A stretch of DNA of 40,469 nucleotides from Escherichia phage ECP1. How positions within the stretch are numbered: the first letter of the stretch is position 1; each line of letters starts with the position of its first letter. A program made the position numbers and the translations under genes. The notes under the pieces are model-generated. The model made no database searches. It was not told the origin of the DNA and saw only the letters and a list, made by a program, of their open reading frames with translations. The stretch is from the sequence record KY979108. One strand, 5' to 3'. Positions 1-40,469 of the stretch are shown here, piece by piece.

Positions 1-15
1 AAGCAGGAGTGAAAC

Positions 16-333
16 ATGGGCGTCGTTAAGTTAGCTGATTACAGGCATAACCCTGTACAACATCAGGAGGCATCCAGTATGGGGTATGTCTCTATACACC
101 GCCAGTTTATGGACAGCAGGCTCTATAAGGACTCTCAGGCAGTACATCTTTGGCTTCACTTAATCCTCAAGGCTAATCACGAATCTACTGTCGTCAATAC
201 GGATATCGGTCCGATAACTGTTGATCGCGGTCAGATGATAACTGGACGCCCGTCGCTGGTCAGAGAAACATTCATCCCCGACAACAAAGTTCGGAGCTTA
301 TTACGGACTTTTGAGTCCGAAAGGGATGCTTAA
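16..333 (+). CDS. Replication initiator (lambda O-like), N-terminal part; appears split from the 311..907 ORF by a frame change
   Basis: AGGAG Shine-Dalgarno 7 nt upstream of ATG at 16; sits just downstream of cII in the circular order and upstream of the iterons and DnaB helicase; frame 1 stops at 331-333 while the overlapping frame is open from 242. Confidence 0.5.
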   Translation: MGVVKLADYRHNPVQHQEASSMGYVSIHRQFMDSRLYKDSQAVHLWLHLILKANHESTVVNTDIGPITVDRGQMITGRPSLVRETFIPDNKVRSLLRTFESERDA

Positions 334-907
334 TATTTGCTCGATGGGGAAGAAATTTAGCCTGTTTACAATCGTTAAATATGACGATTTTCAGGCAAAA
401 AATTGTCCAACGGTTGTCCAACAGTTGTCCAACGCAAACACCAGTAATGGCGCGGCTCTCAGCGGAGATTGTCCAACGGTTGTCCAACAGTTGTCCATAA
501 ACAATAATATAAATAATATCTCTAATACTGACGTATTAGAGAGTGCCACAGCAGACAAAAAGTCTGACAAGAAAAAACCTTCCGTTAGCTGTCAGGATGT
601 TGTCGATGCTTACCACGAAATCCTTCCTGAAGCGCCAAGAATCCGCGCACTGAATGACAAGCGTAAAAACCAGATCCGAACGTTCTGGCGCAAAGCCGGA
701 GTGATAACCCGCCAGCTTGACGGGCATGGGTTCACGATGCAGGACTGGAGAAATTATTTGAGCTACGTAGGCGAAAATTGCCGATGGATGTTCGAAGAGC
801 GTCCAAACCATCAACGCGGAACTGTCTGGCACAAAAAGGGATTTGATTTCCTGCTTAACGATAATACCTACCTGAAAGTTCGTGAGGGTGAACACGATGA
901 CCGATAA
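311..907 (+). CDS. Replication initiator (O-like), iteron-encoding and C-terminal part; frame open from 242, TTG start reported by the ORF track
   Basis: ORF contains the direct-repeat iterons at 403..499 (translated as repeated PTVVQQLS), as the lambda O gene contains ori; immediately precedes the DnaB helicase. Confidence 0.5.
   Translation: MSPKGMLNICSMGKKFSLFTIVKYDDFQAKNCPTVVQQLSNANTSNGAALSGDCPTVVQQLSINNNINNISNTDVLESATADKKSDKKKPSVSCQDVVDAYHEILPEAPRIRALNDKRKNQIRTFWRKAGVITRQLDGHGFTMQDWRNYLSYVGENCRWMFEERPNHQRGTVWHKKGFDFLLNDNTYLKVREGEHDDR
403..499. repeat. Replication origin iterons: six copies of TTGTCCAAC (last TTGTCCATA) at 11-bp spacing, in two triplets separated by 35 bp
   Basis: Copies read directly at 403, 414, 425, 469, 480, 491. 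Confidence 0.8.
500..545. promoter_or_regulatory. AT-rich segment with perfect 24-bp palindrome TCTCTAATACTGACGTATTAGAGA (519..542), likely the ori unwinding element
   Basis: Lies directly downstream of the iterons; origin architecture of iterons plus AT-rich region. Confidence 0.5.
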
Positions 908-2392: not shown

Positions 2393-2409
2393 TGGGGGAG
2401 AGGGAAGTC

Positions 2410-8452: not shown

Positions 8453-8613
8453 CCATTACAAAGCTCACCTGCTGGTGGGCTTGATAATGGTTATCCCCAC
8501 AAAAGGATATTCTGTCAAATATCCCGAGTAGGGTATAGACATAACAGCATTCATTCACGGGTTGCCTGTAATAATGCTATAAATGATTACCTTAAAAATA
8601 AAATGGTGATCAT

Positions 8614-9090: not shown

Positions 9091-9124
9091 AACATATCAT
9101 ACAGCATTTTATTTCCTTCCTATG

Positions 9125-26597: not shown

Positions 26598-29500
26598 ATG
26601 GCAACTGCAACCGCGATTAAAGGCCGCAAAGGCGGTAGTTCAAAGACACGCACTCCAACTGAACAGCCCGATGATCTGCAGTCAGTTGCGAAGGCGAAAA
26701 TTTTAATCGCCCTTGGCGAGGGCGAGTTCTCCGGGCAATTAACCGGCAAAGATATCTACCTGGACGGAACAGCGCTGGAGAATGCTGACGGCTCCCAAAA
26801 CTTCAGCGGGGTAACGTGGGAGTTTCGCGCGGGAACGCAGGCGCAAAAATATATTCAGGGTATTCCCGGTACCGAAAACGAGATCAGCGTAGGAACTGAG
26901 GTATCAAGTGCCACAGCCTGGACGCGCACGTTTACCAATACGCAGCTTTCAGCAGTTCGCCTGCGTCTTAAATGGCCCTCGCTTTTCAAACAGGAAGACG
27001 ACGGCGATCTGGTGGGTTACTCGGTCAATTATGCGATTGACCTGCAGACTGACGGCGGCACATGGCAGACGGTACTCAATACCAGCGTGACCGGTAAAAC
27101 GACCTCAGGTTATGAGCGCAGCCACCGTATCGATTTACCGCAGGCTGGCAGCACCTGGACAATACGTCTGCGTAAGATTACCTCTGACGCCAACAGCGCG
27201 AAGATCGGCGACACGATGATGCTGCAGAGCTTCACTGAGGTGATTGACGCCAAGTTACGATATCCAAACACAGCGTTACTCTACATCGAATTCGATTCCA
27301 GCCAGTTTAACGGCTCTATCCCTCAGATCTCCTGCGAGCCCCGCGGCCGCGTTATCCGCGTTCCAGATACCTACGACCCTGAAACCCGCACTTATAGCGG
27401 TACATGGACCGGTGCGTTTAAGTGGGCATGGACGGATAACCCTGCGTGGATTTTTTACGACCTGGTTGTTTCTGACCGGTTCGGCCTTGGGCACCGTTTG
27501 ACCGCTGCGAATATTGATAAATGGACGCTTTATCAGGTTGCTCAGTATTGTGATCAGATGGTACCAGACGGCAAAGGGGGCAACGGTACAGAACCACGCT
27601 ATACCTGCAACGTGTACATTCAGGACCGGAACGACGCCTACACAGTCCTGCGTGATTTTGCCGCTATCTTCCGTGGCATGACCTACTGGGGCGGGGATCA
27701 GATTGTGGCCCTGGCTGACATGCCGCGCGATGTTGATTACAGCTACACGCGCGCTAACGTTGTTGGCGGTCGCTTCACCTATTCGAGCAGCACCACGAAA
27801 AGCCGCTACACCACAGCACTGGTTTCATGGTCAGATCCGGGGAACGCTTATGCCGACGCGATGGAGCCGGTATTTGAGCAGGCGCTGGTGGCGCGATACG
27901 GCTTCAATCAGCTGGAAATGACAGCCATCGGCTGCACCAGGCAGTCAGAAGCGAACCGAAAGGGGCGCTGGGGTATTCTCACCAACAACAAGGATCGCGT
28001 TGTTTCGTTTGATGTCGGGCTGGACGGAAACATTCCGCAGCCTGGCTACATCATCGCCGTGGCAGACGAGCTGCTTTCCGGAAAGGTTATGGGCGGCCGC
28101 ATCAGCGCCGTTAACGGTCGCGTTATCAAACTTGACCGCGTAGCTGATGCAGCACCAGGTGATCGCCTTATTCTCAACCTTCCCTCCGGAGCGTCGCAGA
28201 GCAGGACCATTCAGGCCGTGAACGGGGAATCAGTCACAGTCACCACGGCATACAGTGAGACGCCACAGGCCGAAGCTGTTTGGGTGGTTGAATCTGACGA
28301 GCTCTACGCGCAGCAGTATCGAGTTGTCAGCGTTTCCGATAACAATGATGGCACTTTCTCGATTACCGGCGCATGGCACGACCCGGATAAATATGCCCGT
28401 ATCGATACCGGAGCCATCATTGACCAGCGGCCGGTGAGCGTGATTCCGCCGGGTAACCAGTCGCCGCCTGCGAACATCGTGATCAGCTCGTTTTCCGTGG
28501 TTCAGCAAAATATCAGCGTCGAAACAATGCGCGTGAGCTGGGACCAGGCGCAGAACGCTATCGCCTATGAAGCACAATGGCGCCGCAACGACGGGAACTG
28601 GGTTAACGTGCCGCGCACCTCCACCACGTCATTCGACGTCCCGGGGATTTATGCCGGGCGCTACCTGGTGCGGGTGCGCGCAATCAATGCCGCAGAAATT
28701 TCATCCGGATGGGGCTATTCAGAAGAGAAAACGCTGACGGGTAAAGTGGGCAATCCACCGAAGCCGGTTGGCTTTATCGCCTCTGAAAACGTGGTGTTCG
28801 GTATCGAGCTGAACTGGGGATTCCCGGCGAATACCGACGACACGCTGAAGACGGAAATTCAGTACAGCCTGACCGGTACTGAAGACGATGCCATGCTGCT
28901 GGCCGATGTGCCTTACCCGCAGCGCAAGTATCAGCAGATGGGCCTGAAGGCGGGGCAAATTTTCTGGTACCGGGCGCAGCTGGTGGACAGGACAGGCAAT
29001 GAGTCGGGTTATACCGACTGGGTACGTGGACAGGCCAGTATCGATGTGTCGGATATCACCGATGTTATCCTGGAGGACATTAAAGAATCGGACACGTTCA
29101 AGGAACTGATCGAAAGCGCAGTAGACAGCAACGAAAAAATTGCTGGTATGGCTGACGATATCAGACAGAACGCTGACGATCTGGAGCAACAGGCGCTGGC
29201 CATCAAGGAAAACGCCGATGGGCTCGCCCAGGCCGAGGTGAAGATTGACGAAATCTCTGTCTCGATGGATGGCATGACGGGAGGCGTTAAAAACTCCTCT
29301 ATCGCGGTTATTCAGAACAGCCTCGCGCAGGTCACCAGCCGTCGATCCCAGACAGCCACCAACGCCGGGAACAGCGCCAGCATCGACCGTATCGATACCA
29401 CCATTGCAGATACCAGCCAGGCGGTTGCCCGTGCGCTGGTTACGCTTGATGCTTCTGCCGGTGGTAATGTCTCAAACGCGACCGATCTCACCGAAACCCT

Positions 29501-30053
29501 TGCTGATTTCACGCAGGCCTCGGCCACGAAAATCAACTCCCTGACGGTTACGGTAAACGGCCAGACAGCGGCTATTAACCAGACCGCGCAGGCGGTGGCT
29601 GATGTGAACGGTAACCTCAGCGCGATGTATAACATCAAGGTTGGCGTTTCCAGCAACGGTCAGTATTACGCCGCGGGCATGGGGATTGGTGTTGAGAATA
29701 CGCCGTCCGGGATGCAGTCGCAGGTCATCTTCCTGGCTGACCGCTTCGCCGTCACCACGGCAGCAGGTAACAGCGTGGCTTTGCCGTTTGTGATCCAGAA
29801 TGGACAGACATTCATCCGGGACAGTTTCATCCAGGACGGCACTATCAGCAACGCAAAGATTGGTAATTTTATCCAGTCGAACAATTATGTTGCTGGTTCT
29901 GCTGGCTGGAAGCTTGATAAAGGGGGGACGTTTGAGAACTACGGTTCGACTGCTGGTGAGGGAGCCATGAAACTGACAAATCAGACGATCAGCGTCAAAG
30001 ATGGCAGTAATGTTCTTAGGGTGCAGGTTGGACGATTAACGGGAGTATTCTGA
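26598..30053 (+). CDS. J: Host specificity protein J (central tail fibre)
   Basis: 1151 aa in the J position, with fibronectin-like central region. Confidence 0.9.
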   Translation: MATATAIKGRKGGSSKTRTPTEQPDDLQSVAKAKILIALGEGEFSGQLTGKDIYLDGTALENADGSQNFSGVTWEFRAGTQAQKYIQGIPGTENEISVGTEVSSATAWTRTFTNTQLSAVRLRLKWPSLFKQEDDGDLVGYSVNYAIDLQTDGGTWQTVLNTSVTGKTTSGYERSHRIDLPQAGSTWTIRLRKITSDANSAKIGDTMMLQSFTEVIDAKLRYPNTALLYIEFDSSQFNGSIPQISCEPRGRVIRVPDTYDPETRTYSGTWTGAFKWAWTDNPAWIFYDLVVSDRFGLGHRLTAANIDKWTLYQVAQYCDQMVPDGKGGNGTEPRYTCNVYIQDRNDAYTVLRDFAAIFRGMTYWGGDQIVALADMPRDVDYSYTRANVVGGRFTYSSSTTKSRYTTALVSWSDPGNAYADAMEPVFEQALVARYGFNQLEMTAIGCTRQSEANRKGRWGILTNNKDRVVSFDVGLDGNIPQPGYIIAVADELLSGKVMGGRISAVNGRVIKLDRVADAAPGDRLILNLPSGASQSRTIQAVNGESVTVTTAYSETPQAEAVWVVESDELYAQQYRVVSVSDNNDGTFSITGAWHDPDKYARIDTGAIIDQRPVSVIPPGNQSPPANIVISSFSVVQQNISVETMRVSWDQAQNAIAYEAQWRRNDGNWVNVPRTSTTSFDVPGIYAGRYLVRVRAINAAEISSGWGYSEEKTLTGKVGNPPKPVGFIASENVVFGIELNWGFPANTDDTLKTEIQYSLTGTEDDAMLLADVPYPQRKYQQMGLKAGQIFWYRAQLVDRTGNESGYTDWVRGQASIDVSDITDVILEDIKESDTFKELIESAVDSNEKIAGMADDIRQNADDLEQQALAIKENADGLAQAEVKIDEISVSMDGMTGGVKNSSIAVIQNSLAQVTSRRSQTATNAGNSASIDRIDTTIADTSQAVARALVTLDASAGGNVSNATDLTETLADFTQASATKINSLTVTVNGQTAAINQTAQAVADVNGNLSAMYNIKVGVSSNGQYYAAGMGIGVENTPSGMQSQVIFLADRFAVTTAAGNSVALPFVIQNGQTFIRDSFIQDGTISNAKIGNFIQSNNYVAGSAGWKLDKGGTFENYGSTAGEGAMKLTNQTISVKDGSNVLRVQVGRLTGVF

Positions 30054-30054
30054 A

Positions 30055-30357
30055 ATGGCTTATGGAATACAGACCTGGGATGCTTCAGGAAAACCCAACA
30101 ACTATGGCATCAAACCCGTTTCCGTCGTTGGGCGAATACAGCTGGCTGCCGGGCAAACCTCCGGCAGCTGGTCTTTTACGGTGCCCTCAGGAATGAAAGT
30201 TGGTTTTGTTCTTTCACTTGATGAAGGAGGTAACAGCGTAGGGCGGCGCATTGTCGCGTCAGGGAGCACAATAACCGTAAGCGCTGCATCTTCTGTAGGC
30301 CTGGGAAATTATCCGGCCTCAAAATGTGAGGTGGTTGTTTTCATGGAGAAAGCATAA
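30055..30357 (+). CDS. Hypothetical protein downstream of J
   Basis: ORF coupled to the J stop. Confidence 0.45.
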   Translation: MAYGIQTWDASGKPNNYGIKPVSVVGRIQLAAGQTSGSWSFTVPSGMKVGFVLSLDEGGNSVGRRIVASGSTITVSAASSVGLGNYPASKCEVVVFMEKA

Positions 30358-30995
30358 TGGCCGAATTTGGCGCGATGATATTAATGGACAACGGGAACCC
30401 ATTTGTAACGCCCCAGTCAACGCCTTTTTGTCTTTACGGCAAGTACACTTTCAACTCCTCTGCTAATGGCAGTTCGCAGCAGGTTGCTCAGAATATTGCA
30501 TTAAATGCTGACTACCCTGTGATGGTATTTATCAGGACCACAAATACCGCCCAGCCCACGCCAGTAATATCTTACCGGAACGGCGGAAATATATATGTCG
30601 CGGGGGTTAATCCTTATAACCAGAGCTTCACGTTAACTGCATATATATTTGCCATATTTCCACAGACGTTACCGAAGTGGGGGATGGCAATCTGGGATTC
30701 GAGCGGGAAGCTGGTACTCACTAATGAGTCCCGCGTGCTGTCAGACTTGCAGACAATCGGAACGCCTGGAGCAAACGGCGGGATTAACATTGACCAGACG
30801 CTTGATGGTTCATGGGCAGTGGCTCCATCAAGGCTGGGGCAAGTGAACAGAAACGACGCTTACTCATCTTGTAGGTATTCAGGCACAAGTACAAGAATAA
30901 ACGCTGGTACAGCCGCAAATACTCCTGGGGGGGCTGGAGGGGTGATAAATAATGGAATTATCCTGACAGCAATTAAAACAGACGCCTATGATTGA
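30357..30995 (+). CDS. Hypothetical protein, possibly tail-fibre associated
   Basis: ORF coupled to the upstream gene. Confidence 0.45.
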   Translation: MAEFGAMILMDNGNPFVTPQSTPFCLYGKYTFNSSANGSSQQVAQNIALNADYPVMVFIRTTNTAQPTPVISYRNGGNIYVAGVNPYNQSFTLTAYIFAIFPQTLPKWGMAIWDSSGKLVLTNESRVLSDLQTIGTPGANGGINIDQTLDGSWAVAPSRLGQVNRNDAYSSCRYSGTSTRINAGTAANTPGGAGGVINNGIILTAIKTDAYD

Positions 30996-31073
30996 TCGCT
31001 TTGAGCGATCAATTATCCCAATTTATTTCATGCTGCTATTGTTGAGTTAATATTGACCTCTGGATTATTAATA

Positions 31074-31307
31074 ATGAAAAAGCTGATTATCTGCCTGGCT
31101 GTAGCGTTATCTCTGACCGGTTGCGCTGGTGTACTTGAGAAACAGAAACCGATTTGCAGCGGCACGGCATATATGGGTGGCCATGAGAATACCGTTATGA
31201 TTTACGCCGTTCGAAAGCAAAACAACCAGACGCAATACCAGGCCGGATATCCCTTTAACTGGCGCTGGGTAAGTGCGAACACATTCACAAGCACGACATG
31301 TAAATAA
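31074..31307 (+). CDS. Small lipoprotein (candidate Cor-like superinfection exclusion protein)
   Basis: Signal peptide with lipobox LTGC (MKKLIICLAVALSLTGCAG); located downstream of J where cor-type genes sit. Confidence 0.5.
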   Translation: MKKLIICLAVALSLTGCAGVLEKQKPICSGTAYMGGHENTVMIYAVRKQNNQTQYQAGYPFNWRWVSANTFTSTTCK

Positions 31308-31365
31308 CTCATGATTTTCAATGCAAACCTCGCCTCGGCGGGGTTTTTTATTGCCTGGAGAAAAT

Positions 31366-32661
31366 ATGCTTTATAACACTGGAACCATCGCCATTAACGG
31401 AAACAGCGCCACCGGCACGGGCACGAACTGGACGGCACCCGCCAGCCAGGTCCGCGCTGGCCAGACGATTATCGTGATGTCTAACCCGGTGCAGCTGTTT
31501 CAGATTTCATCCGTGAACAGCGCCACGTCAATGACGGTTACTCCAGCTGCTTCCCCGGCGCTGAGCGGCCAGAAGTACGGCATTCTTGTTACTGATAGTC
31601 TCTCGGTCGACGGCCTGGCGCAGAGCATATCTCAGCTCATTAACGAGTACGACGAGAATATCGGCGCGTGGGAGACGTTCGCCACCACCTCCGCAAACCA
31701 GACTATCACCGTTACTATCAATGGGGCCTCCGTGAATATTCCTGGTATTGGCGCACTTGCCAGAAAGGGGGCGAATAGCGATATCACGGAGCTGAAAGGG
31801 CTCACTACCGCGCTTTCTATTGCACAGGGTGGCACCGGGGCAACGAAGGCAGAAGACGCTCGCACAAACCTCGGTTTGGGAAACGTAGCCACTCTTAATA
31901 CTGGCGAGTCTCGTGAAAACGTAGTTACGGTAGGTTCTTCTGGTATTGGAGGCAACAGTATCGGAACAGGGTCTGAAAACATCAATACGTTTGCCGGGAA
32001 AACATGTTTCTGGACTGGGCGAGGTAGCGGACCCATTACCAGTGTTGTTTTTGGTTTTACAGTAACCCACTCCACACAGTCATCCGCTTATAACACACAG
32101 GTTGCATTCAGAGGCGGGCGCTCTTATCTTCGCGCACTGGAAGGTGGAACCTACACAAGCTGGTATGAAAATTACTCAACAGCCAACACCACTAAAGCCA
32201 GTGATGGAACTCTTAAAGCGGCATCGCCGGTGGCACGTATCGTTAAGTCTCAGGAAGAGAGTCAGCGTACTGACGTAGCCGATGATGGTTTCTCCTGGTG
32301 CGGCTGTGGAACGGCGAACGCTGAGGCGGAGGGAATAACCCTTTCCCGCCTCGAGGTGGGTGTTTACTTGCTGGCCGGTTCGGCAGGACTTGCGTCAGAG
32401 GGATGGCAACTGCTGCCGCCAATGGACCCTGGCGGAATGGGAGAGCTTGGCGTTGTCGAAGCAGAACAGACCGAAAGCGGCGAGCTGACAATCCGTCTTT
32501 TCAAGCGAAAATATATCCTGAGCGATGAAGGTGAGGTCATCAAAACCAAAGGTGAACCGATTGACGTCCCGGCGAACAGCTGGATCGATGTTCGTCTGGA
32601 TATGCCAGAAAACAGTGTCTGGAATCAGCGCCAGAAAGAGGCGATTGAACCTGCTTCATAA
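31366..32661 (+). CDS. Side tail fibre protein
   Basis: Glycine/serine/threonine-rich repetitive protein with conserved tail-fibre-like segment; start after hairpin and RBS GGAGAA. Confidence 0.75.
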   Translation: MLYNTGTIAINGNSATGTGTNWTAPASQVRAGQTIIVMSNPVQLFQISSVNSATSMTVTPAASPALSGQKYGILVTDSLSVDGLAQSISQLINEYDENIGAWETFATTSANQTITVTINGASVNIPGIGALARKGANSDITELKGLTTALSIAQGGTGATKAEDARTNLGLGNVATLNTGESRENVVTVGSSGIGGNSIGTGSENINTFAGKTCFWTGRGSGPITSVVFGFTVTHSTQSSAYNTQVAFRGGRSYLRALEGGTYTSWYENYSTANTTKASDGTLKAASPVARIVKSQEESQRTDVADDGFSWCGCGTANAEAEGITLSRLEVGVYLLAGSAGLASEGWQLLPPMDPGGMGELGVVEAEQTESGELTIRLFKRKYILSDEGEVIKTKGEPIDVPANSWIDVRLDMPENSVWNQRQKEAIEPAS

Positions 32662-32869
32662 AGAAAACCGCCGCCTGTCGTATGCAAGCACGAGCCACGG
32701 CTGGCTGTCTAACTTTCGATAGTGCGAGTATTGAATGATTTCCAGCCGCTACCGATTTTACTATGTTTTCAGTAGAACACTTAGACAAAACTGAGACACA
32801 CAAATCTTTGCACTGGATTGCAAGGCTTTGTGCTCTTCTGTGAATGTGTGGCTATATGTTTGAAGATCG

Positions 32870-32889
32870 TTGTGCCGTATTTGTGACAT
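32870..32889 (+). promoter_or_regulatory. attP arm-type integrase binding repeat TTGTGCCGTATTTGTGACAT
   Basis: Near-identical copy at 33089..33108 on the other side of the core; partial copy at 32921..32933. Confidence 0.5.
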
Positions 32890-32995
32890 ATATATGGCAA
32901 CATCATGCATCAACTTTCTGTTTGTGCCATCAACTATAGCTTAGTGAATGCGGTTAATGCTTGCTAAAACAGATAGTTATGATTGGTGCTACAGA

Positions 32996-33040
32996 TTCGT
33001 AATGCGAAGGTCGTAGGTTCGACTCCTATTATCGGCACCA
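32996..33040 (+). other. Attachment-site core: 3' 45 nt of a tRNA-Thr(CGU) (anticodon loop through CCA), not a complete tRNA
   Basis: TTCGTAA anticodon loop (anticodon CGT), T-arm GGTTCGACTCC, acceptor 3' strand and CCA are present; the 5' half is absent and replaced by unrelated sequence. Confidence 0.7.
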
Positions 33041-33054
33041 TTTAAATCAATGAG

Positions 33055-34215
33055 TTACCTCGCATTTAAGTAAACCACATTCTCCTCTTGTGCCGTATTT
33101 GTGCCATTGCGACTTATAATCGCATCGATTTTGCTCGCGTGCTCGGTGAGATGCCCGGCTGAAAGGTGTGCGTATCTTTGAACCATTTCGAGAGTTTCCC
33201 ATCCTCCCATCTCTTTAAGTGCAAGAAGAGAGACACCGGACTGAACCAGCCAGCTTGCCCAAGTATGCCTCAGGTCATGGAAGCGGAAGTTGCTAATGCC
33301 TGCCCGCTTTAACGCTCCCTTCCATGCCTTGTTGCTGTCGGTTCTCATCTTCCTTACCGCTGCTGTTTTTGTTCCGTCGCTTCGGTAGGCAGGTTTGGTG
33401 TGGACAAATACCCATCTCTTATGGAGCCCCTGCTGTTTTCTTAATATCTGGCATGCGGTTTCGTTAAGAGGAACTCCGATCGCATTGCCAGCTTTTGTTT
33501 CATCAGGGTGCATCCATGCCATTTTCTTATCCAGATCGACCTGTGACCACTCAAGGTCTGTAACGTTGGAACGGCGAAGGCCTGTCGTGATTGCAAACAT
33601 GACCACAGGGAAGAAATGAGGAGCAATTTCTGCAAACAGGCGCTTAGATTCCTCCTCTGTAAGCCATCTGATTCGTCCATTCTTAACGCGTGGTGTTGAT
33701 ATTTTGGGCGCCCTGTCAAGCCATCCCCATTCAACAGCCATATTGAGAATAGCGCGAAGTATTGCCAGATGCCGCGTCTTCGTTCCTTTGCTTGCCAGCT
33801 TTGGTTTATACTCCGGCACTGGCTTGCCAAGCCGCAAACACCTGTCCCGGCTCATTTCCCAGTTCAGGCGATGGCGGCGGTTTTCCATCCCGTCTACCGC
33901 CTCCATTATTTTTTCTGTTGTTATGTCAGAGAGAATGGTTTCTCTGAAGTGCAACATCCAGAACGATATAATGCTCTTGTCATCATCAATGGACTTCTTA
34001 TCCGATTTCTCACGCAGCCACCGTATGCAGGCTTCCTTGAATAGCTTTTTCGGCGATTCCCCGAGATTTTTTACTCTCCACGCTTCTGCTTTCAGACGAT
34101 CGTGAAGTTCTTGCGCTTGCCTTTTGTCCGATGTTTCAAGAGAGCGTCTAACTCTTGATCCATCTGGCGCGACGAAATCACAGTGCCACGTGCCACCGCG
34201 TAGTTTGATTGACAT
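33055..34215 (-). CDS. int: Tyrosine integrase (thrW-targeting, P22-like)
   Basis: 386 aa with HDLRHT and RYAHL catalytic motifs; adjacent to the att core. Confidence 0.9.
   Translation of the reverse strand: MSIKLRGGTWHCDFVAPDGSRVRRSLETSDKRQAQELHDRLKAEAWRVKNLGESPKKLFKEACIRWLREKSDKKSIDDDKSIISFWMLHFRETILSDITTEKIMEAVDGMENRRHRLNWEMSRDRCLRLGKPVPEYKPKLASKGTKTRHLAILRAILNMAVEWGWLDRAPKISTPRVKNGRIRWLTEEESKRLFAEIAPHFFPVVMFAITTGLRRSNVTDLEWSQVDLDKKMAWMHPDETKAGNAIGVPLNETACQILRKQQGLHKRWVFVHTKPAYRSDGTKTAAVRKMRTDSNKAWKGALKRAGISNFRFHDLRHTWASWLVQSGVSLLALKEMGGWETLEMVQRYAHLSAGHLTEHASKIDAIISRNGTNTAQEENVVYLNAR
33089..33108 (+). promoter_or_regulatory. attP arm-type integrase binding repeat TTGTGCCGTATTTGTGCCAT (inside the 3' end of int)
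   Basis: Direct repeat of the element at 32870..32889. Confidence 0.5.
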
Positions 34216-34439
34216 GCTTTAACCTCCTGCACATCAACCGCATTCACCGCGCTATTGTGTCTTACAGACTTAAGCGCCGCAATGCAGTCTGACTTGCAAA
34301 TGCGATATGGGCTTTTAGGTTTATCTGGATTTATCTTTGCGGCCTGAAGTCGTCCACTTCGTATCCACTGCGTGATAGTGCCTTTGTCTACCTTCAGATA
34401 CGATGCTGCCTCTTCACGAGTGAAGATTTCTTCTTCCAC
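34092..34439 (-). CDS. xis: Excisionase (Xis-like DNA-binding protein)
   Basis: N-terminal winged-helix-like segment (FTREEAASYLKVDKGTITQWIRSGRL); overlaps the int start as in lambda xis/int. Confidence 0.6.
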   Translation of the reverse strand: MEEEIFTREEAASYLKVDKGTITQWIRSGRLQAAKINPDKPKSPYRICKSDCIAALKSVRHNSAVNAVDVQEVKACQSNYAVARGTVISSRQMDQELDALLKHRTKGKRKNFTIV

Positions 34440-34620
34440 TTGGAATCTCCATTTATTGAGTTGGTATTATTGCGGTAGGTCTGGATATCTTGAGAAATGA
34501 ACAGGCCTCACCGAGTGTGAGGCGGTGTTATTTCATGGTTAGTCCTTGCGTAGCTCGCTGATTCTTCTGTAAGTCTCTGGTGCTTTGCTATCTCACGCAG
34601 TGCCTGATAGTCAATATTGC

Positions 34621-35157
34621 TCACTGGTTGCCTCCTTTGCGAAGCTGGGCGGCGAACTCGTTAAGTGATATGTAGCAATCTCCAAATGTTAACGAACCGC
34701 TCGACCGCATATGCTCCATAGCCATCTCCACGCCCTGCGCCCGCACTTCAGCCAGGAAAGCGTCGGTGGCTGGAGTTTCTTCTTCTTCAATCTCGGCAAC
34801 GACATCTTCGTGATAAGTTGTGATATCGTTCTGGTGGATATCTACGAAATAACCTTCAACAGTTGCCTCGTGTCCGCGCTGATATCCTGAGTTGAAAATT
34901 CGCACGTGGTCAGCCTTCAGCCCCGCATTCTCAGCAGTCAGCGCCGCGCACTTGGCTTCAAGGTTATCAATCGTGATTCCAGCAGAACGACACTCCCGCA
35001 ACGCCGTTTCTAGTTTTGATTCAAGTTCACCGAACTTACGCACCAGATATTCAGCGTTTGTTTCGTTAACCTTTAAATCTCGTGGGATGCATTTACCTTT
35101 CAGAAATCCATCCATCTCAATTAGTGACATTTGTTTCATTTCTTCCCACTCCGCCAC
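34621..35157 (-). CDS. Hypothetical early protein
   Basis: 178 aa ORF in the int-proximal early-left region. Confidence 0.45.
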
Positions 35158-35333
35158 ATTGCATTCAGATATTTGTTGTCATTAACAGAGCCGAAACTAT
35201 TTCTCTTAAGCAATTCATCTCTCGATGGCATTGGCTTTACGCGTTGGCGAATAATCATTTCTGCCGGAAGAATACCGGGATTGTATGCAAGTCCTCTCAT
35301 GGTAAATTCCTCAGTCATTACTGATAGCGCCAT
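35136..35333 (-). CDS. Hypothetical small protein (ORF track shows 35136..35453; internal start favoured)
   Basis: Overlaps the 35311..35607 ORF in another frame, so the shorter form from the internal Met is more plausible. Confidence 0.3.
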
Positions 35334-35607
35334 AGCGTGAGCGGTAATTACGCAGGCGCGGGTCGATATATTCAGGGAAGTGGGTATATGTGGCTTTGCG
35401 GAATGGTCGGATTGATGTCTGGTAAATTCGCTCTCGTTCTTCTTTCTCTGCAAGCCATATACAGTGGCGAAATTCCTTTTCTTCTTTCGTTTCCTGCGGT
35501 AGCGACATTATCCGGTCGTAGTTTTTCCTGAATTTATCCAGCACCTCCGATACGGAATTGCCGGAACAGCGGCGCGCGTCGTCCGCACCATACAGAGGCG
35601 CTGGCAT
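35311..35607 (-). CDS. Hypothetical early protein
   Basis: 98 aa ORF directly downstream of SSB. Confidence 0.4.
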
Positions 35608-35620
35608 GATTTTCTCCTGA

Positions 35621-36136
35621 TTAAATTGCGTGAATAGCGTGACGAGGGAAGGGGAGGGTTACTGGCGCAAAAGGTATATCGTCGTCAAACTCCATAGGTG
35701 GTTCGCTGTGATTTACCTGCTTCTGAGGCTGCTGTTTTTGTTGCTGACCGTTATTTCGCTGAGGTGAAGACTGTTCATTGCTTCCTTGCTTGCCACCAAG
35801 CATTTGCATGGTTCCACCAACGCCCACGATAACTTCGGTAGTGAACCGATCCTGTCCGCTTTGATCCTGCCATTTTCTTGTCCGCAATTTTCCTTCAAGA
35901 TAAACCTCAGAGCCTTTTCGCAGATATTCGCTGGCAATTTCTGCCAGTTTCCCGCTCATTACCACACGGTGCCACTCCGTCTGCTCCTTTTGCTCTCCAG
36001 TTTGCTTATCACGCCATTGTTCTGACGTAGCAACTATAAGGTTTGCAAATGCCGTTCCTGATGGTGAATATCTGATTTCTGGATCATGCCCAAGGCGACC
36101 AATAATGATCACCTTATTTACGCCTCTACTTCCCAT
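35621..36136 (-). CDS. ssb: Single-stranded DNA-binding protein
   Basis: OB-fold N-terminus, glutamine/glycine-rich linker and acidic C-terminal tail DDDIPF. Confidence 0.9.
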
Positions 36137-36844
36137 TTATGCCGCCTGTTTTAGTTCGTTAACTCTGATGTTCATTACCTGAACGCATTTAGCCTGCGCA
36201 TCCTCATTGCCAGCCATTAATTGCCAGTCATGCTGATAACGTTCTATGAGTTTTTTCTTGTCAGTTTCTGTTGATGCATAATCGCTGAAGTCTTTCAGGA
36301 TTTGTTCGCAGTCAACCGATGGAGATTTCTGGTTGGTATTTTCTGGTGATGGTTTGTTATCTGATGCTGGGATTGCCCAGCCCGGCAGCGATGGAGGGAG
36401 CCAGTAAAATCCTGTTCCATCCTTCAGTTTTGCCCTGTGCCACCCCTGCTTTTTATCGGGAGATGTTTGTGCGAAACCTTCCTCAAGGTTATACAGATAC
36501 CGACCGATTCCCCACTGAACGGCAGCGCGCTTCATTGCACCGGAACGACCACCTTTGACGGCTTCTACCTGCGTGTTTTCAGCAGCATCCCATTTGGTTA
36601 CCCATTCGGAATCAATCTTTATTGATATGCCGCATTCAACGCCGCCGTTGTTGGGAATATCGCGGTATTCATTGCGCCATCCTGCTTTGCCACAAACATC
36701 GTCAAGGCGTTTCATGATTGCCCGGTTCGTAACATAAGCCAGCACCATAGCCCACACCTTGCCATCGCGTGTTTTACCGCTTTGCTGTATTCGCCATTCG
36801 ATATCTTCAGGGCAGAATGGCTCATCGAATTTGTTCAAATCCAT
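36137..36844 (-). CDS. Single-strand annealing recombinase (Rad52/Sak-like)
   Basis: 235 aa upstream of and coupled to ssb; Rad52-type assignment is moderate. Confidence 0.5.
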   Translation of the reverse strand: MDLNKFDEPFCPEDIEWRIQQSGKTRDGKVWAMVLAYVTNRAIMKRLDDVCGKAGWRNEYRDIPNNGGVECGISIKIDSEWVTKWDAAENTQVEAVKGGRSGAMKRAAVQWGIGRYLYNLEEGFAQTSPDKKQGWHRAKLKDGTGFYWLPPSLPGWAIPASDNKPSPENTNQKSPSVDCEQILKDFSDYASTETDKKKLIERYQHDWQLMAGNEDAQAKCVQVMNIRVNELKQAA

Positions 36845-36943
36845 AATTCACCTCAGAATGGACATGGCCCAAGGAAATAACGCTGGTTTAATACTTCGAC
36901 TCGGGACAAATTAAGGCATACCCGCATTCCTTCGCGGTCACCA

Positions 36944-37102
36944 TTATGGCGATACCAGAGAGCTTTCTGCGTGTACATGCGTCTCTGTAACTTGCTCTCC
37001 TTCACTGTGGTTGCAAGTGACATGAATATCTCCTTCGTTACCGATTAATTCTTTCATCTGACGAATGAATTCTTCGTCTGACCAGTTATCTGTAAAACTC
37101 AT
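36944..37102 (-). CDS. Small early ORF (52 aa)
   Basis: Hand-translated; start overlaps upstream stop (ATGA). Confidence 0.35.
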   Translation of the reverse strand: MSFTDNWSDEEFIRQMKELIGNEGDIHVTCNHSEGEQVTETHVHAESSLVSP

Positions 37103-37251
37103 TTCCTGCGATACCACGGAATGTTGATCGCTGATTTCATCGCTTTATTTGCTTCAAGCCACATTTTGGAATCACCAATAAATCTGGCTATTACTGCTTT
37201 GTTCTGTGCAGCACGAAGCATCTGGTGATTGATGGCTATTTCATTGCGCAT
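37099..37251 (-). CDS. Small early ORF (50 aa)
   Basis: Hand-translated; translationally coupled chain. Confidence 0.35.
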   Translation of the reverse strand: MRNEIAINHQMLRAAQNKAVIARFIGDSKMWLEANKAMKSAINIPWYRRK

Positions 37252-37370
37252 AACGCCTCCAGTTGTTTCTTTGCTGCTCTGATTAATTGTTTAACTCGGC
37301 GTGATAATTCAGATTCGTGCGGGTAGAAAGCGGACATGACGCCGCTACCCGCGAGCTGAAAGTGCATCAT
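37236..37370 (-). CDS. Small early ORF (44 aa)
   Basis: Hand-translated; RBS GGAG before ATG. Confidence 0.3.
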   Translation of the reverse strand: MMHFQLAGSGVMSAFYPHESELSRRVKQLIRAAKKQLEALCAMK

Positions 37371-37453
37371 GGGTAACTCCTTATATTTGATTGCATAACG
37401 AAAACGCCTCGAGTGAAGCGTTATTGGTATGCGGTAAAGCCGCGCTCAGGCGG

Positions 37454-37702
37454 CTACTCTATTTCTTCTTCGAATGATTTTATTAGTCGGTCAATAACAT
37501 CATCCGTTTCAATATCATTTCCGTCTGATTGCTTTAATACATCTATTGATTCTGCAGCGGTAAATTCCATCGCTGTGAGAAACTCGACAATTGCACACTC
37601 AACGACATATCGTTCTTCATCTGTACGACATGAGATAAAAGAGCATTTAATTGCTGTTATTACTTTTTGTTTAAGCTCTGCAGGGTAATCAGTTTTTATC
37701 AT
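37454..37702 (-). CDS. Hypothetical acidic early protein (82 aa)
   Basis: Strongly acidic C-terminus (DGNDIETDDVIDRLIKSFEEEIE). Confidence 0.45.
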   Translation of the reverse strand: MIKTDYPAELKQKVITAIKCSFISCRTDEERYVVECAIVEFLTAMEFTAAESIDVLKQSDGNDIETDDVIDRLIKSFEEEIE

Positions 37703-37715
37703 CGTTTACTCCGTC

Positions 37716-37742
37716 AAAAAAATTGCCCTCACATTAGAGGGC
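37716..37742 (-). terminator. tL-like rho-independent terminator in the early-left operon
   Basis: Hairpin GCCCTC/GAGGGC followed by a T8 run on the minus strand. Confidence 0.55.
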
Positions 37743-37959
37743 AAAGAAGATTTCCAATAATCAGAACAAGTCGGCTCCTGTTTAGTTACGAGCGACATTG
37801 CTCCGTGTATTCACTCGTTGGAATGAATACACAGTGCTGTGTTTATTCTGTTATTTATGCCAAAAATAAAGGCCACTATCAGGCAGCTTTGTTGTTCTAT
37901 TAACCAAGTTCTCTGGCAATCATTGCCGTCGTTCGTATTGCCCACACCATTGATTCTTA

Positions 37960-38046
37960 TCAATAGTCGTAGTCATACGGATAGTCCTGGTATTGTTCCA
38001 TCACATCCTGCGGATGCTCTTCGAACTCTTCAAATTCTTCTTCCAT
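37960..38046 (-). CDS. Very small acidic ORF (28 aa, MEEEFEEFEEHPQDVMEQYQDYPYDYDY)
   Basis: Hand-translated; RBS GAGGTGAGAT before ATG. Confidence 0.3.
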   Translation of the reverse strand: MEEEFEEFEEHPQDVMEQYQDYPYDYDY

Positions 38047-38108
38047 ATCTCACCTCAAATAAGTGGTTTGCTGCCAAAACAATGAACCATCCGGAAATTC
38101 CAGATAGT

Positions 38109-38336
38109 TCATAATTCACTCTTCAATACTTCCAACTTACTAATCGCCGATAGATATCCGCGCTGATAGGGCATCATCATTCCTTCGAGCTTGCCACTTC
38201 TTAACTCCTCCCTGAGCAATTGTATTGCTTGATCAATAACCTCTGCCTTAGCGTCCTTTATGGCTTGCTTGCGGGGCTTTGCTTTCTGCTTTGGCAGATT
38301 TCTCAAGCATGATGGAATGTATGTCTGATTCATCAC
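38109..38336 (-). CDS. Hypothetical early-left protein (75 aa)
   Basis: ORF immediately downstream of the N-like gene. Confidence 0.4.
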   Translation of the reverse strand: MMNQTYIPSCLRNLPKQKAKPRKQAIKDAKAEVIDQAIQLLREELRSGKLEGMMMPYQRGYLSAISKLEVLKSEL

Positions 38337-38609
38337 TTACCTGGCTGTCAGTTGTTTTGATTTCCGGTAGCCTGCCGCGTAAAGAGCTACGTTTGGCAGG
38401 CAAATACTTCCACTGCATTCATCTGCCTTCTTGCAGCGAAGGATTCCGAGTGATGCTGCTTTATCTGCTCTGACGCAACCAGAGAGCTTTAGCGCAATTT
38501 TTCGTGCCAGTCGCTGCTCTTGCATTGCCTGTTCACGTTGAGCCTGTCTGCGTGCTCTGCGGCGATTTCTGGCGTTATCGTCAGCCAGATATGTAATGAC
38601 TACTGTCAT
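38337..38609 (-). CDS. N: N-like transcription antiterminator
   Basis: N-terminal arginine-rich motif (NARNRRRARRQAQREQA); first gene after PL and nutL. Confidence 0.65.
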   Translation of the reverse strand: MTVVITYLADDNARNRRRARRQAQREQAMQEQRLARKIALKLSGCVRADKAASLGILRCKKADECSGSICLPNVALYAAGYRKSKQLTAR

Positions 38610-38715
38610 GTTGACCTCCGATGATTGACTTTGGCGGTGACGCGCCGGGTGCTTATCTTCCGGTTGCCGTCGTGCAGCTGCACTTCACGTCACCCCAAAG
38701 CCAACTACTCTTTGG

Positions 38716-38757
38716 TTCCCGCATTTCGGCGGGACAATCCCATCAATGTTAAAGAGC
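38716..38757 (-). promoter_or_regulatory. nutL: boxA (GCTCTTTAACA) and boxB hairpin (TTCCCGC-CGAAAT-GCGGGAA)
   Basis: Same boxA/boxB pair recurs at nutR on the + strand. Confidence 0.7.
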
Positions 38758-38803
38758 CTGCCAATCTGTTCCGTTTGGCTTCCAGCGTCCTGCTGATGGC
38801 TAG

Positions 38804-38832
38804 ATAATCACAAATTGTGGTCGTACTGTCAA
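38804..38832 (-). promoter_or_regulatory. PL promoter (-35 TTGACA, 17-bp spacer, -10 GATTAT) with overlapping OL operator palindromes
   Basis: Read on the minus strand; imperfect palindromes with ATCACA/TGTGAT half-sites overlap and flank it. Confidence 0.6.
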
Positions 38833-38904
38833 CACGAAATGTGATTGTTTTTATCACAACCCGTGTTTACATTGATTTTAAAGGTAATTTAATTTTCTTT
38901 GGGC

Positions 38905-38930
38905 AACAAAAAACCCGCCGAAGCGGGTTT
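38905..38930 (-). terminator. Terminator downstream of cI (hairpin CCCGC-CGAA-GCGGG with T-run on the minus strand)
   Basis: Inverted repeat between the cI stop and PL. Confidence 0.55.
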
Positions 38931-38953
38931 GATGTTTTTAAGTGGCGGGTATA

Positions 38954-39595
38954 TCAGGAGAATTTCATCATCATCTGCACTGCTACGCCGATTATCTTGC
39001 AGTTGCCGTCGATTGGGATCAACGGATAGGCAGGGTTAAGCCCTTTCAGGTATTTGTTACCGCCATCAATGATTAGCTTCTTGAACGTGGCTTCATTAGC
39101 ATCTGTCAGCTTCGCAACTACCAGGCTTCCATTAACGGCTTCCTTTCCAGTGTCGAACAGAACCAGCATACCCTCAGGAACGCTAAGGCCGGTAGGAGCT
39201 GTCATTGAGTCGCCCTGAACCCTGAGCCAGAAGGCGTCACCGACAACGTGACAATCTGATTCATACCACTCATCCACTGCCTGAGGGTTGTACGGCTCTA
39301 CGGCCTCACTCCATGCACCTGCGCTAACCCAGCTAATCAACGGAAACTTTTCCCCTGGCTTGTATTGTCCCTGATAGTTGTCGCCAAAAAGCAGTTCTGC
39401 CGGAGCGACACCCAAAGCTTTAGCTATTACCTCTGCGTCATCAACACTAACGCTTCTGGTTCCTGATTCATAGTTGCCGATCCGAGATTGTGAAGCCCAG
39501 CCGCAAAGCTCCGCAAGAGCCTTCTGTGTAAGCCCTTTATCTTCCCGTAATCGCTTGATACGCGCGGCGATAGTTTCTGTTCTGTTCATGCGCAT
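38954..39595 (-). CDS. cI: CI-type repressor (HTH-XRE N-terminus, S24 LexA-like autocleavage C-terminus)
   Basis: HTH motif (LTQKALAELCGWASQSRIGNYESG), likely Ala-Gly cleavage site (SAGAW), catalytic Ser (GDSM) and Lys (VVAKL). Confidence 0.9.
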   Translation of the reverse strand: MRMNRTETIAARIKRLREDKGLTQKALAELCGWASQSRIGNYESGTRSVSVDDAEVIAKALGVAPAELLFGDNYQGQYKPGEKFPLISWVSAGAWSEAVEPYNPQAVDEWYESDCHVVGDAFWLRVQGDSMTAPTGLSVPEGMLVLFDTGKEAVNGSLVVAKLTDANEATFKKLIIDGGNKYLKGLNPAYPLIPIDGNCKIIGVAVQMMMKFS

Positions 39596-40336: not shown

Positions 40337-40469
40337 ATGACAAAACGTCGTAAGAAATACCAGGAAAAAGAAGAGATTCGACACCCTGATTCACCTGAGG
40401 GATTAGTGGTAGCCGCAGCAAATAACAGGGCGTTCGCAGAGCGCCTTGTTGGTGTTTACAGACTAGCCA
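40337..40469 (+). CDS. 5' part of a small ORF running off the window end
   Basis: ATG at 40337 with RBS GGAG; translation MTKRRKKYQEKEEIRHPDSPEGL...; truncated by the window. Confidence 0.3.
   Translation, partial: MTKRRKKYQEKEEIRHPDSPEGLVVAAANNRAFAERLVGVYRLA

What the first reader, a model, noticed from the sequence alone, without database searches (positions are those of the whole stretch)
32870..33108. attP-like site with tRNA-Thr 3' core and arm repeats; window is a circularly permuted whole phage genome
Only the 3' 45 nt of a tRNA-Thr(CGU) is present (32996..33040), with phage sequence on both sides: tail-fibre region upstream, integrase downstream. Direct repeats of TTGTGCCGTATTTGTG(A/C)CAT flank the core at 32870 and 33089, consistent with arm-type Int sites. 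The gene order (replication to tail, then att-int to cI-cro-cII) is what a circular, excised or tandem genome gives, not a single integrated prophage, where this junction would be split into attL and attR.
Basis: partly seen in the sequence, partly recalled or inferred. Interest (0 to 1): 0.55.

Follow-up and report, generated by a model that had tools for sequence, protein, structure and literature searches.

The report
Phage attachment site in tRNA-Thr
This is the ordinary, already annotated integration site (attP) of an HK97-like temperate coliphage that inserts into the host tRNA-Thr gene thrW, and the window is a complete phage genome written as an arbitrarily opened circle.

Summary
Window 32995..33040 (46 nt, not 45) is identical to the 3' part of E. 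coli thrW and to the published attP core of phages SfI, SfII, SfV, SfX and P22. ARAGORN finds no complete tRNA gene. The 20-mers lie at 32870-32889 and 33088-33107 (not 33089) and match at 19 of 20 positions.

Each 20-mer is a pair of TTGTG(C/A)C heptamers 11 bp apart, and a fifth copy lies at 32922. All five are on the + strand (Poisson P about 6e-10). They sit at the same offsets from the core as the five TGGGAC repeats in P22 attP. Across six phages that share this core, the repeat changes the same way on both arms and tracks the Int N-terminus. This supports Int arm-type sites.

Integrated relatives split exactly at the core: thrW-core-P'-int at one end, tail-P-core at the other. Near-identical sites are already annotated as attP in HK542, HK446, mEpX2 and mEp213.

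The window ends are adjacent in HK542 and contiguous in 101 E. coli genomes. They cut through a 53-aa gene. The circular-permutation reading is supported.

Verdict: correct, but already known and of low interest.

The parts
32870..33107 (+). attP as bounded by the outermost strong arm repeats (238 bp): P arm, core, P' arm
   Evidence: It is 99.7% identical to the HK542 attP region. P22 attP is listed as about 260 bp in PMC4111918.
32995..33040 (+). 46-nt common core, identical to thrW positions 31-76 (anticodon loop to CCA end). The strand exchange must occur inside it.
   Evidence: alignment with K-12 thrW, and with QL57EC attL and attR. PMC3636060 gives the identical 46-base core for SfI, SfII, SfV, SfX and P22.
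33002..33024 (+). ATGCGAAGGTCGTAGGTTCGACT, the sequence given in the literature as the P22 attP core site (probable core-type Int sites and overlap region)
   Evidence: The sequence was read. It is quoted as the P22 attP site (Lindsey et al. 1992) in PMC8022706. The P22 record annotates the homologous 21300-21322 as the attP core.
32870..32876 (+). Predicted arm-type Int site P1 (TTGTGCC), about 125 nt before the core start
   Evidence: It has the same offset as the P22 TGGGAC copy at -125. It is invariant in 34 distinct P arms.
32881..32887 (+). Predicted arm-type Int site P2 (TTGTGAC), 11 bp after P1
   Evidence: It has the same offset as the P22 TGGGAC copy at -114. It is invariant in 34 distinct P arms.
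32922..32928 (+). Predicted arm-type Int site P3 (TTGTGCC), about 72 nt before the core start
   Evidence: The P22-type phages have their third copy at -60, one helical turn closer to the core. One variant was seen among 34 P arms.
33088..33094 (+). Predicted arm-type Int site P'1 (TTGTGCC). Its TGTGCC hexamer begins 49 nt after the core end, inside the 3' end of int.
   Evidence: The +49 offset is identical in P22, SfII, ENT47670, S107 and GF-2. The site is kept in loci whose Int is only 84-93% identical.
33099..33105 (+). Predicted arm-type Int site P'2 (TTGTGCC). Its hexamer begins 60 nt after the core end, inside the 3' end of int.
   Evidence: The +60 offset is identical in all six phages compared.
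33045..33057 (+). AATCAATGAGTTA, a perfect match to the IHF consensus WATCAANNNNTTR (H'-like site)
   Evidence: there are only 2 perfect matches in the whole window on both strands. P22 has one at the homologous position 21343.
33055..34215 (-). int: tyrosine integrase of 386 aa
   Evidence: PF00589 matches residues 184-353 at E 9e-35. It is 54% identical to P22 Int over 380 aa. The R214, H313-x-x-R316 and Y348 columns are invariant across five Ints. The DNA is 98.8% identical to SfX int.
34092..34439 (-). xis: excisionase of 115 aa that overlaps the start of int
   Evidence: Pfam HTH_17. It is 42% identical to P22 Xis of 116 aa. HK542 annotates it as excisionase.
32797..32840 (.). Conserved palindromic block at the outer edge of the P arm. 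Its function is not established. Homology among phages that carry different cargo genes begins close to it, at about 32783.
   Evidence: It is about 90% identical to lambda 27473-27516 and is present in Stx phages and HK633, which use other integrases. It was flagged as terminator-like at 32806-32825.
40337..40469 (+). 5' part of the 53-aa gene (gp53-like, HK542_040 homologue) that is cut by the window end
1..29 (+). 3' part, with the stop codon, of the same gene. It continues from 40469.
   Evidence: 52 of 53 residues identical to HK542_040; the junction is contiguous in 101 E. coli genomes.
31321..32661 (+). Tail-fibre gene, the last late gene before the P arm
   Evidence: Pfam Phage_tail_C_2. 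HK542 annotates its homologue as tail fiber.

Best explanation
Window 32870-33107 is the attP of a lambdoid HK97-like temperate siphophage that integrates into the host tRNA-Thr(CGU) gene thrW. It uses a heterobivalent tyrosine integrase of the SfX/P22 lineage (33055-34215, minus strand) and an excisionase (34092-34439, minus strand).

Proposed mechanism, by analogy with lambda and P22:
- The catalytic and core-binding domains of Int act on core-type sites inside the 46-nt stretch shared with thrW.
- The Int N-terminal domain binds five direct TTGTG(C/A)C arm-type sites, three on the P arm and two on the P' arm. The P' pair lies inside the last codons of int.
- IHF probably bends the DNA at the consensus site next to the core.
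- Recombination with thrW leaves proA-thrW(rebuilt)-P'-int...tail-P-core-host. The tRNA gene stays intact because the phage supplies an identical 3' part.

The window is the whole 40.5-kb genome written as a circle opened arbitrarily inside a small gene between cII and O. That is why attP is unsplit and lies between the tail and int genes.

Shown here: the core identity, the repeats and their statistics, the positional homology and covariation, the attL/attR split in relatives, and the contiguity of the window ends. Inferred: which protein binds which repeat, the exact crossover point, and the role of IHF.
For: Core:
- The 46 nt are identical to thrW and to the experimentally mapped core of SfI, SfII, SfV, SfX and P22 (PMC3636060).
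- The P22 core sequence is present (PMC8022706).

Annotation: near-identical sites (98-99.7%) are annotated as attP in HK542, HK446, mEpX2 and mEp213/mEp043.

Integration:
- The E. coli QL57EC chromosome has proA-thrW-core-P'-int...tail-P-core. The sequence switches from host to phage exactly at the left edge of the core.
- Of 53 IMG/VR loci with this Int and the core, 41 carry the complete thrW 5' half next to the core.
- Record PV340544.1 (mEpX2; host field E. coli K-12 MG1655) starts and ends at the core.

Arm sites:
- TTGTG[AC]C occurs 12 times in the window on both strands. Five copies lie within 256 nt around the core, all on the + strand, P about 6e-10.
- The offsets are -125, -114, -72, +49 and +60, against P22 TGGGAC at -125, -114, -60, +49 and +60.
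- In six phages with the identical core, the motif differs (TGTGCC, TGGGAC, TGTGTC) but is the same on both arms of each phage.
- The Int N-termini sort the same way: WHCDF...RVRRSL against WYASF...RFKQSL.
- 1 of 21 site columns varies among 34 distinct P arms, against 23 of 110 neighbouring columns.
- Lambda's annotated 'int 4' arm sites also lie inside the 3' end of int.

IHF: a perfect consensus lies at 33045, one of only 2 in the window, and P22 has one at the homologous place.

Circularity.
Against: - No binding or recombination experiment exists for this particular sequence. The assignment of the heptamers to Int rests on comparison only.
- I could not read the primary P22 footprinting paper (Smith-Mungo et al. 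1994), so equating the P22 TGGGAC repeats with its mapped arm-type sites rests on my recollection.
- No Pfam arm-binding domain was detected in the Int N-terminus.
- The conservation test for the P-arm sites is only marginal when restricted to the closest flanks (p = 0.06), because the whole arm is highly conserved.
- The P' pair lies in coding DNA, so part of its conservation could come from the protein.
- The O gene carries a 1-nt frameshift relative to HK542, so this copy may not be a viable phage.
- Physical circularity of the source molecule cannot be shown from sequence alone.
Confidence: 0.92

Rival explanations
1. The 20-mer repeats are not Int arm-type sites. They could be a relic of a duplicated int 3' end, binding sites for another protein such as Xis, or a chance repeat.
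For: The P' copy lies inside the int coding region, in codons 371-376, so a partial duplication of the int 3' end could in principle have left the P-arm copy. No biochemical data exist for this Int. No arm-binding Pfam domain was detected.
Against: Similarity between the two copies stops at the edges of the 20-mer, so there is no extended int-derived homology. Chance is excluded. Other phages with the same core have a different hexamer at the same five offsets, and it changes in step on both arms and with the Int N-terminus. A relic would not do that. Xis sites in lambda-type systems lie on one arm only (established knowledge of lambda), whereas this motif is on both arms.
Confidence: 0.06
2. 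The window is not a free circular or virion-derived genome. It was cut from a tandem (polylysogen) array, in which an internal P-core-P' junction also looks like an intact attP.
For: Intact P-core-P' junctions occur inside a few E. coli chromosome records (H33-H36). Hybrid junctions between two Int types are common in IMG/VR loci. Tandem elements at thrW are therefore real.
Against: The window is exactly one genome length. It has every module once, no terminal redundancy and no host DNA. Its two ends join into a known gene. A random cut from a tandem array would not give exactly one unit. Both arms here are of the same Int type. Circular 41-48 kb 'plasmid' records with this att exist in E. coli assemblies (H31 and H32).
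Confidence: 0.06
3. The locus is a bacterial tRNA-Thr locus or a prophage end (attL or attR), not an attP.
For: The 46 nt are identical to the host gene.
Against: No complete tRNA is detected. The 5' 30 nt of thrW are absent and replaced by phage P-arm sequence shared by 34 distinct phage and prophage P arms. Tail-fibre and int genes flank the site.
Confidence: 0.01

Closest known systems
attP of coliphages HK542, HK446, mEpX2, mEp213/mEp043 and HK75, and of Shigella phage SfX (thrW-integrating, 'CP4-6 type' site)
   Same: The P arm, core, P' arm and int-xis are 95-99.7% identical in DNA. The records annotate the site as attP similar to thrW and ptwF. The position is the same, between the tail-fibre or cargo genes and int.
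   Different: The att module itself shows no meaningful difference. The rest of the window is a new mosaic: no phage or E. coli record covers 80% or more of either half. The public records annotate only the core, not the arm repeats.
Salmonella phage P22 attP/Int/Xis (attP22 in thrW)
   Same: The 46-nt core is identical. The architecture is the same: a pair of repeats about 125 and 114 nt before the core, a third copy nearer to it, and a pair at +49 and +60 inside the int 3' end. An IHF consensus lies next to the core. Int is 54% and Xis 42% identical.
   Different: The arm repeat is TGTGCC/TGTGAC instead of TGGGAC. The third P-arm copy is at -72 instead of -60. The Int N-terminal strands differ (WHCDF/RVRR against WYASF/RFKQ). 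The palindromic block that lies between the P-arm sites in P22 lies outside them here.
Bacteriophage lambda attP/Int
   Same: It has a heterobivalent tyrosine integrase, arm-type sites on both arms with the P' set inside the 3' end of int, IHF involvement, and xis overlapping int. The palindromic block to the left of att is shared at about 90% identity.
   Different: The core is unrelated and the target is intergenic rather than a tRNA gene. The arm consensus differs. Int is not detectably similar in the comparisons run here.

Membership tests
Lambda-type attP of a heterobivalent tyrosine integrase | A core sequence shared with the bacterial attB, at which prophage junctions switch between host and phage DNA | tested here: met
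   The 46 nt are identical to thrW. In QL57EC, attL and attR switch at the left edge of the core. 41 IMG/VR attL loci carry the full thrW.
Lambda-type attP of a heterobivalent tyrosine integrase | Repeated arm-type sites on both arms that differ in sequence from the core | tested here: met
   Five TTGTG(C/A)C copies lie on one strand, three on the P arm and two on the P' arm, P about 6e-10. The motif covaries between the arms in six phages. Protein binding was not tested.
Lambda-type attP of a heterobivalent tyrosine integrase | An adjacent tyrosine recombinase gene with the catalytic R...HxxR...Y residues, and an excisionase gene | tested here: met
   PF00589 at E 9e-35. R214, H313, R316 and Y348 are invariant in the alignment. 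Xis has HTH_17 and is 42% identical to P22 Xis.
Lambda-type attP of a heterobivalent tyrosine integrase | An N-terminal arm-binding domain in Int | tested here: inconclusive
   No Pfam arm-binding family reached threshold. The N-terminal 60 residues are homologous to those of P22 Int and covary with the arm motif. No structure was predicted.
Lambda-type attP of a heterobivalent tyrosine integrase | Int-dependent recombination of this attP with attB | not testable with these tools
   This needs an in vivo or in vitro recombination assay. Only indirect evidence from integrated relatives is available.
thrW-targeting att sites (P22, SfX, SfV, SfII, SfI group) | The core ATTCGTAATGCGAAGGTCGTAGGTTCGACTCCTATTATCGGCACCA | tested here: met
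   The match at 32995-33040 is exact. The published core is in PMC3636060. The core is identical in P22, SfII, ENT47670, GF-2 and S107.
thrW-targeting att sites (P22, SfX, SfV, SfII, SfI group) | Int homologous to P22 and SfX Int, encoded immediately next to the P' arm on the opposite strand | tested here: met
   Int is 54% identical to P22 Int. The DNA is 98.8% identical to SfX int. The int stop codon at 33055-33057 begins 15 nt after the core end.
Complete tRNA gene (phage-encoded or bacterial) | A full cloverleaf of about 76 nt detectable by a tRNA finder | tested here: not met
   ARAGORN finds 0 genes in the window. Rfam reports no tRNA match at E<=1. The 30 nt upstream of the core only loosely resemble the thrW 5' half.
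Circularly permuted complete phage genome | The two ends of the sequence are adjacent in relatives, and all modules are present once | tested here: met
   The ends map to HK542 28749/28750 and mEpX2 28620/28621. The junction is contiguous in 101 E. coli genomes. A gene spans the junction. There is no terminal repeat.
Circularly permuted complete phage genome | Physical evidence that the source molecule or assembly is circular | not testable with these tools
   The source record and reads are not available. No identical record exists in the phage or E. coli collections.

The most novel reading that the evidence does not exclude
The thrW att modules form an allelic series. A fixed 46-nt core and a fixed five-site geometry are combined with interchangeable arm specificities (TGGGAC, TGTGCC, TGTGTC), and each specificity is matched by changes in the first 25 residues or so of Int. 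Because the P' sites are read as int codons 371-376, a switch of arm specificity also rewrites the C-terminal tail of Int (GTNTAQ, VPNMSH, DTKTTQ). The window's P arm still carries a decayed outer TAGACA/TGAGACA pair homologous to the outer P-arm TGGGAC pair of P22, which may be a fossil of such a switch. If so, these modules would be a natural system for reading and re-engineering the arm-recognition code of heterobivalent integrases.
Probability: 0.35. Interest if true: 0.35.

Novelty: already known. Interest (0 to 1): 0.1.

Why it matters
It matters little beyond correct annotation. The result tells an annotator four things. The window is a complete temperate phage genome and not a prophage in host DNA. 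Its integration target is thrW. The tRNA-like fragment is not a gene. The genome should be treated as circular for gene calling, because one gene spans the ends. The comparative by-product is modestly useful for anyone engineering P22/SfX-type integrases: arm motifs and Int N-termini change together around an invariant core.

Tried and rejected
- I tried to read the primary P22 att papers (Mattis 2008, PMC2519534; Cho 1999, PMC93926 and PMC93925). They are not held. Three literature searches gave only secondary citations of Smith-Mungo 1994. The P22 arm-site identity therefore rests on the P22 sequence itself and on my recollection.
- I looked for the source record. No phage record and no E. 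coli complete genome covers 80% or more of either half of the window. The source stays unknown.
- I first took the ends of the HK542 record as its cos site. I rejected this because that record starts at the terS ATG by convention. I therefore make no claim about the exact cos position.
- I considered that the conserved block at 32797-32840 is lambda's sib/tI. The alignment shows that it lies to the left of the hairpin I take, from memory and the sequence rather than from the record's annotation, to be lambda's tI. Its fold is not better than shuffles (z = -0.5). I left it unexplained.
- The Rfam hit to CssrB at 32644-32699 (18.6 bits against a gathering score of 76, E 0.32) was dismissed as chance.
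- Pfam and PDB sequence searches did not detect an arm-binding domain.
- I did not predict a structure. A single-sequence model would be poor, and the large homology search needed for an alignment was not justified for a known feature.
- I considered that the hybrid P/P' junctions in IMG/VR are evidence against arm-site pairing. I rejected this, because tandem elements at thrW explain them.

Full report
**1. What is in the sequence**

Window 32995..33040 reads ATTCGTAATGCGAAGGTCGTAGGTTCGACTCCTATTATCGGCACCA.
- It is identical to the last 46 nt (positions 31-76) of E. coli K-12 thrW, tRNA-Thr(CGU).
- The 30 nt before it are not the thrW 5' half.
- ARAGORN finds no tRNA gene anywhere in the window.
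- Rfam at E<=1 gives no tRNA match in 32500-33500.

The two 20-mers are at 32870-32889 (TTGTGCCGTATTTGTGACAT) and 33088-33107 (TTGTGCCGTATTTGTGCCAT).
- The second starts at 33088, not 33089.
- They are the only matches in the window even with three mismatches allowed.
- None of 100 shuffles gave two matches.

A tail-fibre gene (31321-32661) lies upstream. A tyrosine integrase (33055-34215, minus strand, PF00589) and an excisionase (34092-34439, minus strand, HTH_17) lie downstream.

**2. Identity of the site**

The att-int-xis segment is 98-99.4% identical to phages HK542, HK75, mEpX2, HK446 and mEp213/mEp043, and 98.8% identical to Shigella phage SfX.
- The HK542 record annotates the equivalent of window 32995-33056 as [quoted passage not shown].
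- The 46-base core is the one determined experimentally for SfI by sequencing attP, attB, attL and attR. That paper reports it as identical in SfII, SfV, SfX and P22 (PMC3636060).
- The sequence quoted as the P22 attP site, ATGCGAAGGTCGTAGGTTCGACT (PMC8022706), is at window 33002-33024.

**3. Integration at this site in relatives**

In the E. coli QL57EC chromosome the order is proB-proA-thrW-int-xis...cI-cro-cII-O-P...lysis-terminase-head-tail.
- The alignment shows attL as the thrW 5' half, then the core, then the TGTGCC pair and int.
- It shows attR as the window-type P arm, then the core, then a decayed P' remnant and host DNA.
- The switch between host and phage sequence falls exactly at the left edge of the core.

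Of 53 IMG/VR loci that encode this Int (84-100% identical) and contain the core, 41 have the complete thrW 5' half next to it.

Record PV340544.1 (mEpX2; its host field reads E. coli K-12 MG1655) begins at the equivalent of window 32995 and ends at 32996. It is therefore written in prophage form, split at this site.

**4. The repeats as arm-type sites**

Each 20-mer is two TTGTG(C/A)C heptamers 11 bp apart, and a fifth copy lies at 32922.
- The heptamer occurs 12 times in the whole window on both strands.
- Five copies fall in the 256 nt around the core, all on the + strand (Poisson P about 6e-10).
- Measured as the hexamer, the copies lie at -124, -113 and -72 from the core start and at +49 and +60 after the core end.

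P22 attP has TGGGAC at -125, -114, -60, +49 and +60.

Five other phages carry the identical 46-nt core:

| Phage | Repeat motif | Position |
|---|---|---|
| SfII, Cronobacter ENT47670, Salmonella S107, P22 | TGGGAC | same places on both arms |
| Edwardsiella GF-2 | TGTGTC | -133, -122, +50, +61 |
| This window | TGTGCC / TGTGAC | -124, -113, -72, +49, +60 |

The motif changes between phages, but always in the same way on both arms. This is the signature of one protein domain that reads both arms.

The Int N-termini sort in the same way:
- The two TGTG-type phages share W-H-C-D-F and R-V-R-R-S-L.
- The TGGGAC-type phages share W-Y-A-S-F and R-F-K-Q-S-L.
- The catalytic domain, with R214, H313-x-x-R316 and Y348, is conserved throughout.

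Conservation data are consistent with this reading.
- Among 34 distinct P arms retrieved by a pattern that did not include the repeats, one of 21 repeat columns varies.
- The comparison figures are 23 of 110 columns in the near flanks (p = 0.06) and 52 of 159 over the whole conserved arm (p = 0.004).
- The P' pair is kept in loci whose Int is only 84-93% identical, while the 48 nt between the core and the pair vary freely.

As in lambda, where the annotated "int 4" binding region lies inside the int coding sequence, the P' pair here lies in int codons 371-376.

A perfect IHF consensus (AATCAATGAGTTA, 33045-33057) is one of only two in the window. P22 has one at the homologous position.

I could not read the P22 footprinting paper. 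Equating the P22 TGGGAC repeats with its mapped arm-type sites therefore rests on my recollection of Smith-Mungo et al. 1994.

**5. The window as a circular permutation**

- Window 20001-40469 aligns to HK542 7402-28749, and window 1-12599 aligns to HK542 28750-38964. The last and first window bases are neighbours in HK542.
- The same holds for mEpX2, at 28620/28621.
- Joining the ends creates a 53-aa ORF (40337..40469 plus 1..29). It is 52/53 identical to HK542_040, a gp53-like gene between cII and O.
- An 839-nt query made of the end plus the start is contiguous at up to 99.8% identity in 101 E. coli genomes.
- There is no terminal redundancy.
- Every lambdoid module is present once.

In integrated relatives the order starts with int and ends with the tail genes.

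Circular 41-48 kb "plasmid" records that carry this att exist in E. coli assemblies (H31 and H32). This shows how such contigs arise.

I cannot show physical circularity, and I did not find the source record.

**6. Comparison with what is known, and novelty**

The site is a member of the thrW-targeting att group (P22, SfX, SfV, SfII, SfI, and several HK and mEp coliphages). Over the att module it is nearly identical to sites already annotated as attP.

Relative to P22 it has the same geometry but a different arm motif. The third P-arm copy is one helical turn further out. The palindromic block lies outside rather than between the P-arm repeats.

None of this is new in kind. The rest of the genome is a new mosaic of known HK97-like modules.

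**7. Verdict**

The feature is already known and interest is low.

The only mildly new material is the comparative pattern: three arm-motif alleles around an invariant core, tracked by the Int N-terminus and mirrored in the Int C-terminal tail. I give this as the most novel reading that the evidence does not exclude.

Noticed in passing
window 16-907, indel at 317: The replication gene O is split into two ORFs (16..333 and 311..907). The cause is one extra C at position 317 relative to the 891-nt O gene of HK542, which is otherwise 99% identical. It could be a real inactivating frameshift or a sequencing error.
   Followed up: partly
window 32797-32840 (flagged hairpin 32806-32825): This palindromic block (CACAAAGC..TTTGCA ctggat TGCAAG..GCTTTGTG) is about 90% identical to lambda 27473-27516. 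It is also present next to att in Stx phages, HK633, HK106, mEp234 and phage 434, which use unrelated integrases. In P22 it lies between the P-arm repeats. In lambda it lies to the left of the hairpin I take to be tI. Its function is unknown, and its fold is not better than shuffles (z = -0.5).
   Followed up: partly
window 32783-32800: A degenerate pair, TAGACA then TGAGACA, aligns with the outer TGGGAC pair of the P22 P arm. It lies about 88 bp further from the core than the strong TGTGCC pair. It may be a fossil of a P22-type P arm or a weak extra site. TGAGAC is one base away from both TGTGAC and TGGGAC.
   Followed up: partly
window 33088-33105 (int codons 371-376): The P' arm repeats are translated as part of the Int C-terminal tail: GTNTAQ here, VPNMSH in P22, VPNLSQ in SfII and DTKTTQ in GF-2. 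The tail sequence is therefore tied to the arm motif.
   Followed up: partly
loci L017, L033, L054, L055, L057, and about 13 of loci L087-L130: Hybrid junctions occur in IMG/VR contigs. Some have an SfII-type P arm (TGGGAC), the core, and a window-type P' arm with int. Others are the reciprocal, a window-type P arm with an SfII-type P' arm. The most likely cause is tandem elements at thrW. Whole contigs were not examined.
   Followed up: partly
E. coli records NZ_CM143887.1 (locus L004), NZ_AP027694.1, NZ_CM142769.1, NZ_CM142814.1: An unsplit P-core-P' junction lies inside chromosome records. In L004 it sits between the tailspike region and the int gene of a P22-like podophage. This suggests tandem prophages, or excised circles collapsed into the assembly.
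   Followed up: no
window 403-500: Two clusters of three TTGTCCA(A/T) iterons lie inside the O gene, followed by an AT-rich stretch. This is the lambdoid replication origin.
   Followed up: no
window 9842-11302: A 486-aa ORF lies between the lysis genes and the terminase. It has a weak glycosyltransferase family 2 match (E 1e-4, below the Pfam cutoff). Its homologue is HK542_055, also found in Cronobacter phage ENT39118. This is an unusual cargo position for a lambdoid phage.
   Followed up: no
locus L006 2040-2400 (E. coli QL57EC attR): The attR of this prophage is followed by a decayed P' arm. It has a 1-nt deletion in the core copy and TGTGCC..TGTACC repeats before host DNA begins. This is a scar of an earlier element at thrW, comparable to CP4-6 in K-12.
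   Followed up: partly
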